64,000 bases of DNA, from NCBI RefSeq assembly GCF_009914755.1, contig NC_060941.1. The stretch is one strand, 5' to 3'. Made by a program: the position numbers and the translations under genes. A model generated the notes under the pieces. It ran no database searches, was not told the origin of the DNA, and saw nothing but the letters and a program-made list of their open reading frames with translations. Source of the stretch: the human T2T-CHM13v2.0 reference genome, Homo sapiens. Of the stretch, positions 20,450-21,300 are shown one piece after another (position 1 is the first letter of the stretch; the number at the start of each line of letters is the position of its first letter).

Positions 20450-21300
20450 CCTGCCTCATCGCGGGAGGCCAGGAGGGTGGAAGGCAGCGGATCGCGCCCT
20501 AGCGAGCAACCCACATGCTCTGGAAGTGTGGTTCAACTTTCACCAGGCTACTGCGGGCGGCCGGCCAGCTGTCAGCGGGCACTCCGCCCCCAGGAGCTGT
20601 CCGCAAGCGCGGGGCGGTGGGCACCGCGGGGAACAGCCCCCGGACAGCCAGTGGCACGCGGAGACCTCGGAGAGCGCAGGCCCTGCTTTCCCGTAGGAAC
20701 ACTCGTGGGCATCGGGTCGCCCGCTTCGCCCCCGCGCTCTAGACGCACTTTCCTGCCGCCTGGCGATGTCCGAAGTGCATATCAGAGCATGGACTTGGTC
20801 TTCCCAGCGCTACCAGACCGCTGAGCCTCCCCGCACGTGGTGGGGCGCAGGCGGGGCGCCAGCTGCGCGGGAATCCGGGCGAGCGCGCTCCACCCGGGCA
20901 GTGCGGGCCTGGAGCGCCCTCTGGCGGGACGGTGCGCGGCGTTGCGCGTCTCCAGCCTTGGGATTGGCCCGGACTCGCCTTCAACGCACCGGACAGCGCT
21001 GCCAGGAGGCAGAGCTCTGAAAACCTCGACAACGACGCCTCTCTCTTCAGTGCCCGCACTGCGTCCCAGGCTGACGCCAAGGAGGCCCAAGACAGCCCTG
21101 GGTGGCCATTAGGACGGGTCTGGAGGGGACATCAGTGTGGACATCTAGTTGCTGGGCCTGGGGTCACAGCCCCCTTTCTTGTCTGAACTGGCCACTGCCC
21201 GGAGGAGCTGCGCTGTGCGCCTTAGTGTGCCACCACCTAACCGCCATCGCGGCTGAGCCCACCTCCTTTCCCGGACATTAGAGGACGAGGGGTGCGAAGG
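20450..21300. promoter_or_regulatory. Orphan CpG island with CTCF- and RE1-like motifs
   Basis: CpG-dense; CTCF-like CCGCCAGAGGGCGC (minus, 20914-20927) and TCGCCAGGCGGCAG (minus, 20753-20766); RE1-like TTCAACGCACCGGACAGCGCT at 20980-21000. Confidence 0.7.
20590..21200 (-). pseudogene. Decayed inverted ZNHIT3 paralog: promoter, exon 1, intron 1, exon 2
   Basis: Minus-strand anchors appear in the same order as in ZNHIT3: cctgggacgcag, gcactgaagag (vs gcagtgaacag), GGCGTCG (ATG replaced by GAG), CGCTGTCC, a 158-nt intron (vs 149), cagCGGTCTGGTAG..GGAAGACCAAG (vs cagCTGCTCGGTAG..GGAAGCACAAAG), ggtctccgcg, cggacag. Confidence 0.65.

What the first reader, a model, noticed from the sequence alone, without database searches (positions are those of the whole stretch)
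20590..21300. Orphan CpG island is the surviving promoter of a dead ZNHIT3 twin, facing away from the live gene
The minus strand keeps ZNHIT3-like anchors in order: an exact 12-mer cctgggacgcag (cf. 24249-24260); gcactgaagag (cf. gcagtgaacag); GGCGTCG with the ATG lost (21039-21041); CGCTGTCC; a GC-type donor gcgagt; a 158-nt intron ending in CAG; an exon-2 remnant at 20795-20820 followed by GT; and ggtctccgcg (cf. 24835-24844). Coding capacity is gone, yet CpGs are retained. Methylated CpGs are known to decay, so this implies long-term germline hypomethylation. Inference: it may still act as a leftward lncRNA promoter or as an enhancer 3.3 kb upstream of ZNHIT3.
Basis: partly seen in the sequence, partly recalled or inferred. 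Interest (0 to 1): 0.78.

Follow-up and report, generated by a model that had tools for sequence, protein, structure and literature searches.

The report
Ordinary CpG island, no ZNHIT3 twin
A genuine, single-copy CpG island lies 3.3 kb upstream of human ZNHIT3 and most likely serves as an alternative start site of a predicted non-coding RNA, but its supposed likeness to ZNHIT3 is no better than chance.

Summary
The CpG island is real. By the usual criteria it spans 20360-21157, with 73 CpG and o/e 0.80. Its core, 20600-21060, has GC 0.70 and o/e 0.97, against flanks at 0.32-0.45.

- Local alignment of the reverse-complemented island with 23900-25000 is matched or beaten by 182/300, 36/300 and 71/300 dinucleotide shuffles under three scoring schemes. 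The opposite orientation scores higher under two of the three.
- The 12-mer is reached in 16-36 of 200 shuffles, and the colinear anchor chain in 8-27 of 200.
- The "exon remnants" are matched by 25-30 of 58 other 1-kb tiles of the window.
- Four unrelated neighbouring CpG-island promoters resemble the island as much as ZNHIT3's does.

The island and the ZNHIT3 5' end are each single-copy in the genome. No protein or RNA family matches the island.

The RefSeq exon 20749-20868 (-) has no acceptor upstream and a GT donor downstream. It therefore reads as an alternative first exon of lncRNA LOC105371749. So the island looks like an ordinary CpG-island promoter firing leftward. Low interest.

The parts
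20360..21157 (.). CpG island by the 200 bp / GC>=0.5 / o/e>=0.6 criteria: 73 CpG, o/e 0.80. It is single-copy in the assembly and holds no tandem or internal repeats.
20600..21060 (.). Island core: GC 0.70, 55 CpG, o/e 0.97, with no TpG/CpA excess (1.10). The flanks have o/e 0.32-0.45.
20749..20868 (-). Alternative first exon of predicted lncRNA LOC105371749, with the inferred start near 20868. The 12 nt upstream on the minus strand end in CCC, not AG. The exon is followed by GTGCGT (donor AAA|GTGCGT, GT at 20748-20747).
   Evidence: hub annotation table
20219..20327 (-). Internal exon of the same lncRNA, with acceptor TTTCTCCCCCAG| and donor CAG|GTGTTA. That the island-started isoform uses it is my inference.
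   Evidence: hub annotation table
13677..14356 (-). Terminal exon of the lncRNA, with acceptor TTTTGCAG| and an AATAAA about 25 nt before the 13677 end. It lies at the edge of an old dispersed L1-like repeat at about 6750-14110.
20913..20927 (-). CTCF-like motif, 14 of 15 positions of a recalled consensus, 45-59 nt upstream of the inferred start site. It is the only such match in the window, but 0.96 per window is expected by chance.
20963..20967 (-). CCAAT box on the minus strand, about 95-99 nt upstream of the inferred start site. The consensus is recalled and this is a lead only.
20834..20839 (.). Palindromic CACGTG E-box inside the first exon. The consensus is recalled and this is a lead only.
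21059..21070 (-). The 12-mer shared with 24249-24260. It is a chance match: a shared exact word of 12 or more occurs in 16-36 of 200 shuffles.

Best explanation
The feature is an ordinary single-copy intergenic CpG island. It works as a TATA-less CpG-island promoter for an alternative first exon (20868->20749, minus strand) of the spliced, polyadenylated, non-coding RNA LOC105371749. That RNA's two other first exons sit back to back with the ZNHIT3 promoter.

Shown here: the island; its single-copy status; the absence of coding or RNA-family content; the first-exon anatomy (no acceptor upstream, GT donor downstream); the downstream exons with good splice sites and a poly(A) signal; and the lack of any ORF over 30 aa.

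Inferred: transcription really starts there in some tissue, and CpG retention reflects long-term lack of germline methylation, as at other CpG islands. It has no detectable evolutionary relation to ZNHIT3.
For: - Island criteria are met, and core o/e is 0.97 against flanks of 0.32-0.45.
- The island occurs at one place only in the 3.1-Gb assembly.
- TRF and the repeat finder find nothing of note in it.
- No Rfam match at E<=1 lies between 20121 and 21403.
- 0 of 12 island ORFs match Pfam at E<=1.
- The two longest ORFs find only themselves in the genome below E 0.04.
- Exon 20749-20868 (-) from the hub's RefSeq table has ...GGATTCCC upstream (no AG) and GTGCGT downstream. The two other first exons, 24148-24223 and 24345-24413, show the same pattern. 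This matches three transcripts with three alternative first exons.
- Exon 20219-20327 has a strong acceptor and donor, and the terminal exon has AATAAA.
- The spliced isoform has no ATG ORF over 30 aa.
- No plus-strand donor-like site of 8/9 or better lies in 20860-22000. This fits leftward rather than rightward spliced output.
- About half of mammalian CpG islands are 'orphans', and many show transcription initiation (abstract of PMC2944787).
Against: - The lncRNA model is a RefSeq prediction (XR_), and I could not see which exons each isoform joins. No CAGE, PRO-seq, H3K4me3 or methylation data were available.
- No paper mentions LOC105371749 (0 papers).
- GC skew across the island is near zero, from -0.06 to +0.09, so composition gives no strand direction.
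- The donor is only 7/9 to the consensus.
- The motif leads (CCAAT, CTCF-like, E-box) rest on recalled consensus strings. The CTCF-like one is not above chance for the window.
Confidence: 0.68

Rival explanations
1. One reading: the island is the decayed 5' end (promoter, exon 1, intron 1, exon 2) of an inverted duplicate of ZNHIT3 that lost its coding capacity but kept an unmethylated promoter.
For: - The six short anchors are present and colinear.
- The k=7 chain of exact words (118 bases) is reached by only 8 of 200 global dinucleotide shuffles.
- The 26-nt 'exon 2 remnant' aligned on its own is beaten by 0 of 500 mononucleotide shuffles.
Against: - Local alignment is at chance: 182/300, 36/300 and 71/300 shuffles reach the observed score, and the opposite orientation scores higher under two of the three schemes.
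- With local composition kept, the chain is reached in 23-27 of 200 shuffles and the 12-mer in 16-24 of 200.
- The best hit of exon 1 CDS in the island lies at 20546-20615, not at the claimed place. It is reached by 350/400 shuffles and by 30/58 other tiles. Exon 2 is reached by 227/400 shuffles and 25/58 tiles.
- The PIGW, GGNBP2/MYO19, DHRS11 and MRM1 promoters and window 1500-2600 give chains of 109-142 and exact words up to 14 with the island. ZNHIT3 gives 118 and 12.
- No inverted blastn hit appears among the 25 best of 46 hits. The only tblastn hit in the island among the 15 best is aa 40-58 at E 3.9.
- No second copy of 24200-24900 exists in the genome.
- The anchor spacings differ greatly: 181 against 17 nt between the first two anchors (coordinates).
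Confidence: 0.02
2. The island is mainly a regulatory element rather than a productive promoter. It could be a CTCF-bound boundary, or an orphan-CpG-island enhancer acting on ZNHIT3 or on the lncRNA/ZNHIT3 bidirectional promoter 3.5 kb away. The annotated exon would then be by-product transcription.
For: - One CTCF-like motif, 14/15, lies in the island core and is the only one in 64 kb.
- The island sits between a repeat-rich stretch (L1-like repeat 6750-14110 and Alus) and the ZNHIT3 promoter.
- Orphan CpG islands with enhancer activity are described in print. I saw only the search listing of PMC4989897.
Against: - The motif count equals the chance expectation for the window: mean 0.96, and 56 of 100 shuffles have at least one. 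The consensus is recalled.
- RefSeq lists a functional-element enhancer at 24160-25093 only, not at the island (hub table).
- No occupancy data were available.
Confidence: 0.15
3. The island is a distal alternative promoter of ZNHIT3 itself. It would fire rightward on the plus strand when the proximal promoter is silenced.
For: Distal CpG islands several kb upstream can serve this role (abstract of PMC5378174). The island is 3.3 kb upstream of ZNHIT3.
Against: - All 7 RefSeq ZNHIT3 transcripts lie within 24439-37065 (hub table).
- No plus-strand donor-like site of 8/9 or better lies in 20860-22000.
- The ZNHIT3 proximal promoter is itself a strong CpG island, o/e 0.87-0.88. That is not the methylated kind described in that paper.
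Confidence: 0.05
4. The island is the relic promoter of some other gene that was lost or moved when this chromosome region was rearranged next to the TBC1D3/CCL duplication block.
For: The island lies in the short unique stretch between that block (hub table: TBC1D3F ends about 10 kb before the window) and ZNHIT3. I recall, without a call, that the mouse has different neighbours upstream of Znhit3.
Against: - No paralogous DNA or translated match to the island exists anywhere in the genome.
- No Pfam domain is found.
- Nothing points to a donor gene.
Confidence: 0.05

Closest known systems
Orphan (non-coding-gene) CpG-island promoters, as in Illingworth et al. 2010, PMC2944787
   Same: A short, unmethylated-looking CpG-dense stretch away from any protein-coding start site. 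It has a predicted transcript start inside it and drives a non-coding RNA.
   Different: Nothing unusual. Methylation state and initiation were not measured here. The island is 'orphan' only with respect to coding genes, because RefSeq already places a predicted lncRNA first exon in it.
ZNHIT3 promoter / exon 1-2 CpG island (window 24105-24948)
   Same: Similar size, GC content (0.69-0.70) and CpG o/e (0.87-0.97). Both carry an inverted CCAAT and start LOC105371749 isoforms leftward.
   Different: No sequence homology beyond chance. The ZNHIT3 island is bidirectional with a coding gene, whereas the upstream island has no coding partner.
Distal CpG islands used as alternative promoters (Sarda et al. 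2017, PMC5378174)
   Same: An alternative start site of a multi-promoter gene, placed in a separate CpG island a few kb from the main promoter.
   Different: Here the gene with alternative starts is a lncRNA. The extra island lies downstream of its main starts, inside its first intron, not upstream of a silenced promoter.

Membership tests
CpG island (sequence definition) | At least 200 bp with GC >= 0.5 and CpG o/e >= 0.6; stricter form at least 500 bp with GC >= 0.55 and o/e >= 0.65 | tested here: met
   20360-21157 passes the first definition (73 CpG, o/e 0.80). 20215-21383 passes the second (88 CpG, o/e 0.71)..
CpG island (functional definition) | Unmethylated in germline and somatic DNA (CAP-seq, WGBS) | not testable with these tools
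   No methylation data were available. It is only inferred, from core o/e 0.97 with a TpG/CpA ratio of 1.10.
ZNHIT3 duplicate or pseudogene | Nucleotide similarity to ZNHIT3 promoter/exons above composition-matched chance | tested here: not met
   182/300, 36/300 and 71/300 shuffles reach the observed local score. Unrelated CpG-island promoters score as high.
ZNHIT3 duplicate or pseudogene | Colinear anchors or exon remnants beyond what the search space gives | tested here: not met
   The chain is reached in 8-27 of 200 shuffles. Exon 1 and exon 2 best hits are reached by 350/400 and 227/400 shuffles, and by 30/58 and 25/58 other tiles.
ZNHIT3 duplicate or pseudogene | Translated similarity to the ZNHIT3 protein (zf-HIT region, exons 1-2) | tested here: not met
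   tblastn at E<=1000 gives no hit of aa 1-39 in the island among the 15 best. The only island hit is aa 40-58 at E 3.9. 0 of 12 island ORFs match Pfam.
CpG-island promoter of a lncRNA | Transcript start inside the island, with a first exon ending in a splice donor | tested here: met
   RefSeq-predicted exon 20749-20868 (-) has no AG upstream and GTGCGT downstream. The model itself is a prediction.
CpG-island promoter of a lncRNA | Experimental initiation (CAGE/PRO-seq, H3K4me3, Pol II) | not testable with these tools
   No such data were available. 0 papers mention LOC105371749.
CpG-island promoter of a lncRNA | Transcript is non-coding | tested here: met
   The longest ATG ORF is 25-30 aa in the two possible splice forms.
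CTCF-bound insulator | Core CTCF motif present above chance, and occupancy | tested here: inconclusive
   One 14/15 match at 20913-20927 (-), against 0.96 expected per window. The consensus is recalled and occupancy is not testable.

The most novel reading that the evidence does not exclude
The island is more than a minor lncRNA start. It could be a conserved, CTCF-bearing orphan CpG island that marks the edge of the unique ZNHIT3-MYO19 domain against the TBC1D3/CCL duplication block, and that tunes ZNHIT3 expression as an enhancer or boundary. It could possibly be a relic of an ancestral promoter at an evolutionary breakpoint.
Probability: 0.1. Interest if true: 0.3.

Novelty: already known. 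Interest (0 to 1): 0.1.

Why it matters
It matters little. The appealing story, a fossil promoter outliving its gene, has no support in the sequence. What remains is one of more than 10,000 CpG islands away from coding-gene promoters (abstract of PMC2944787), already covered by a predicted RefSeq lncRNA exon.

The useful lesson is about method. Two CpG islands of about 1 kb share exact words of 10-14 bases and colinear chains of short words by composition alone. Hand-picked anchors between GC-rich regions therefore need a search-space-aware control.

Tried and rejected
- **ZNHIT3 twin:** rejected by shuffles, by tiles of the window and by natural CpG-island controls.
- **Copy of another promoter or a dispersed repeat:** rejected. 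The island matches one place in the genome and has no tandem or internal repeats.
- **Coding exon or pseudogene remnant:** rejected at the sensitivity available. 0 of 12 ORFs match Pfam, and translated searches of the two longest ORFs find only themselves below E 0.04.
- **Structured RNA gene:** no Rfam match in the island at E<=1. The SRP-like and mir-like hits from 21404 onward are Alu sequence.
- **G-quadruplex motifs:** none on either strand.
- **tblastn hit of ZNHIT3 aa 30-83 at 13802-13942 (-), E 0.03-0.05:** it lies inside the dispersed L1-like repeat. I take it as chance and did not test it further.
- **Weak same-strand blastn hits of the island to 24550-24628 (E 0.2-1.5):** these fall on the GGCGGGAG tandem repeat in ZNHIT3 intron 1, so they reflect low complexity.
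- **CpG retention in the Alu next to the island (21382-21720, o/e 0.63):** high, but two Alus further away (16815-17120, 19099-19468) are as high at 0.70 and 0.65. Age is confounded, so no conclusion follows.
- **Literature:** 'LOC105371749' gave 0 papers. ZNHIT3 + TBC1D3 + segmental duplication + breakpoint gave 0 papers. ZNHIT3 + CpG island + differentially methylated + intergenic gave 2 papers, 1 listed, which did not look relevant from its title and I did not read it.

Full report
**What is there**

The stretch is clearly a CpG island.
- Sliding 200-nt windows rise from CpG o/e 0.12-0.41 at 19900-20399 to 0.98-1.00 at 20600-20999. They fall back to 0.36 at 21000-21199.
- A formal scan gives an island at 20360-21157 (73 CpG, o/e 0.80) by the 200 bp / 0.5 / 0.6 criteria. 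The stricter 500 / 0.55 / 0.65 criteria give 20215-21383.
- The core 20600-21060 has GC 0.70, 55 CpG and o/e 0.97, with a TpG+CpA ratio of 1.10.
- The flanks 19500-20299 and 21061-21380 have o/e 0.32 and 0.45, with TpG+CpA ratios of 1.29 and 1.23.
- It is about as strong as the ZNHIT3 promoter island (24380-24860, o/e 0.87).

The sequence read also shows the CAG and GT it mentions, with the CAG one base off.

**Is the likeness to ZNHIT3 more than chance?**

| Scoring scheme | Observed | Shuffle mean (sd) | Dinucleotide shuffles reaching observed |
|---|---|---|---|
| First | 24 | 24.6 (2.5) | 182/300 |
| Second | 740 | 691 (39) | 36/300 |
| Third | 45.5 | 41.8 (5.8) | 71/300 |

The island in the opposite, 'wrong' orientation scores 30, 700 and 48.5, higher under the first and third schemes.

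Further tests agree.
- A shared exact word of 12 or more occurs in 16-36 of 200 shuffles.
- The best colinear chain of exact words (k = 7, 8, 9) is reached in 8-20 of 200 global shuffles. It is reached in 23-27 of 200 shuffles that keep the local composition in 100-nt blocks.
- blastn with word size 7, island against the rest of the window, gave 46 weak hits, of which I printed 25. The only ones in the ZNHIT3 5' region are same-strand hits at E 0.2-1.5. They lie on the GGCGGGAG tandem repeat of intron 1.
- tblastn with the 155-residue ZNHIT3 protein against 13000-24300 at E<=1000 gave no hit of residues 1-39 in the island among the 15 best. One hit of residues 40-58 had E 3.9.

Aligned in isolation, the 26-nt 'exon 2 remnant' gives 22 identical of 33 columns, and 0 of 500 mononucleotide shuffles reach that. 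The claimed exon 1 gives 45 of 88 columns (39/500). The 5' piece gives 19 of 37 (117/500).

That segment was picked because it matched, so I repeated the test with the search space included.
- The best local hit of ZNHIT3 exon 2 anywhere in the reverse-complemented island scores 9.5, at 20794-20826. The other orientation scores 10.0. 227 of 400 block shuffles and 25 of 58 other 1-kb tiles of the window do as well.
- The best hit of exon 1 CDS lies at 20546-20615, not at the claimed place. It is reached by 350/400 shuffles and 30/58 tiles.
- The whole exon 1-intron-exon 2 block scores 25.5, against 35.5 in the wrong orientation (374/400).

As a natural control I took four unrelated CpG-island promoters from the same neighbourhood (PIGW, GGNBP2/MYO19, DHRS11, MRM1; L002-L005) and window 1500-2600. 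With the island they give exact words of 10-14 bases and k=7 chains of 109-142. ZNHIT3 gives 12 and 118.

The anchor spacings also disagree strongly: 181 against 17 nt between the first two anchors (coordinates).

**What the island is not**

- It is not a copy of anything else. A search of the 3.1-Gb assembly with 20350-21350 finds only the island itself. The ZNHIT3 5' end, 24200-24900, is likewise unique.
- It holds no tandem repeat and no internal repeat of note.
- No Rfam family matches at E<=1 between 20121 and 21403. The SRP-like and mir-like hits from 21404 on are Alu sequence.
- 0 of 12 stop-to-stop ORFs match Pfam at E<=1.
- The two longest ORFs find only themselves in the genome. All other matches have E >= 0.04.

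**What it most likely is**

The hub's RefSeq table lists an exon of 'other transcripts' of lncRNA LOC105371749 at 20749-20868 (-), which is in the island core.
- On the minus strand this exon is preceded by ...GGATTCCC, so it has no AG acceptor. It is followed by GTGCGT.
- The two exons next to the ZNHIT3 promoter (24148-24223, 24345-24413) show the same pattern.
- The three transcripts therefore appear to have three alternative first exons, one of them in this island.
- Exon 20219-20327 has a strong acceptor (TTTCTCCCCCAG|) and donor (CAG|GT).
- The terminal exon has an acceptor and an AATAAA about 25 nt before its 13677 end.
- Either splice form starting in the island has no ATG ORF above 30 aa.
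- The terminal exon lies at the edge of an old dispersed repeat (about 6750-14110, 65-86% identical to copies on many chromosomes). I take that repeat to be L1-like. The name is my inference, not a tool's.
- No plus-strand donor-like site of 8/9 or better follows the island within 1.1 kb.

The picture is a TATA-less CpG-island promoter firing leftward into a spliced, polyadenylated non-coding RNA.

Motif leads, from recalled consensus strings:
- a minus-strand CCAAT at 20963-20967, about -95 from the inferred start;
- a CTCF-like 14/15 match at 20913-20927, the only one in the window but with 0.96 expected by chance;
- an E-box at 20834;
- GC boxes at 20555, 20584 and 20612.

None of these is evidence of function.

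**How this compares with what is known**

About half of mammalian CpG islands lie away from annotated promoters, and many show transcription initiation (abstract of PMC2944787). Distal islands can act as alternative promoters (abstract and opening of PMC5378174). This island is a plain member of that class and is already touched by a predicted RefSeq model. No paper mentions the lncRNA (0 papers).

It is reasonable but could not be measured here.

**Limits**

- No expression, chromatin or methylation data were available.
- No non-human vertebrate genome was available, so conservation and the true age of the island are unknown.
- A duplicate so old that all similarity has decayed cannot be excluded in principle, but nothing supports one.
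- I could not see which exons each XR transcript joins.

**Verdict**

This is a real but ordinary CpG island, with 0.68 confidence that it acts as the alternative lncRNA promoter. The 'dead ZNHIT3 twin' is a pattern read into GC-rich sequence (0.02). Interest is 0.1.

Noticed in passing
window 24345-24543: The ZNHIT3 start (24439, +) and a LOC105371749 first exon (ending at 24413, -) lie 26 nt apart. This is a classic bidirectional CpG-island promoter, with an inverted CCAAT (gctgattggtcc) at about 24352-24363.
   Followed up: partly
window 1588-2803: A second CpG-rich stretch (45 + 30 CpG, o/e 0.64-0.66) has no gene row in the hub table. It is single-copy in the genome except for a 147-nt piece that is 90% identical to window 39524-39670 (-). 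It shares a 14-mer with the island by chance.
   Followed up: partly
window 6750-14110: An old dispersed repeat of about 7 kb, L1-like by my inference, 65-86% identical to copies on many chromosomes and interrupted at 11764-12075 by an Alu-sized masked block. The terminal exon and poly(A) signal of LOC105371749 lie at its edge.
   Followed up: partly
window 13802-13942 (-): A weak tblastn match to ZNHIT3 residues 30-83 (33% of 54, E 0.03; 40% of 40, E 0.054 with default settings). It lies inside the L1-like repeat and is probably chance.
   Followed up: partly
window 24590-24634: A GGCGGGAG tandem repeat, 4.2 copies, in ZNHIT3 intron 1. It is the source of the only weak same-strand blastn hits between the two islands.
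   Followed up: yes
window 21382-21720, 16815-17120, 19099-19468: Three Alu-sized masked blocks keep unusually many CpGs (o/e 0.63-0.70), against 0.12-0.40 in the 12 others listed. One of them abuts the island. This may reflect young Alus or spreading hypomethylation, and the two are not separated here.
   Followed up: no
window 33389-33575: By the hub table, the last exons of ZNHIT3 (+) and MYO19 (-) overlap tail to tail by 187 nt.
   Followed up: no
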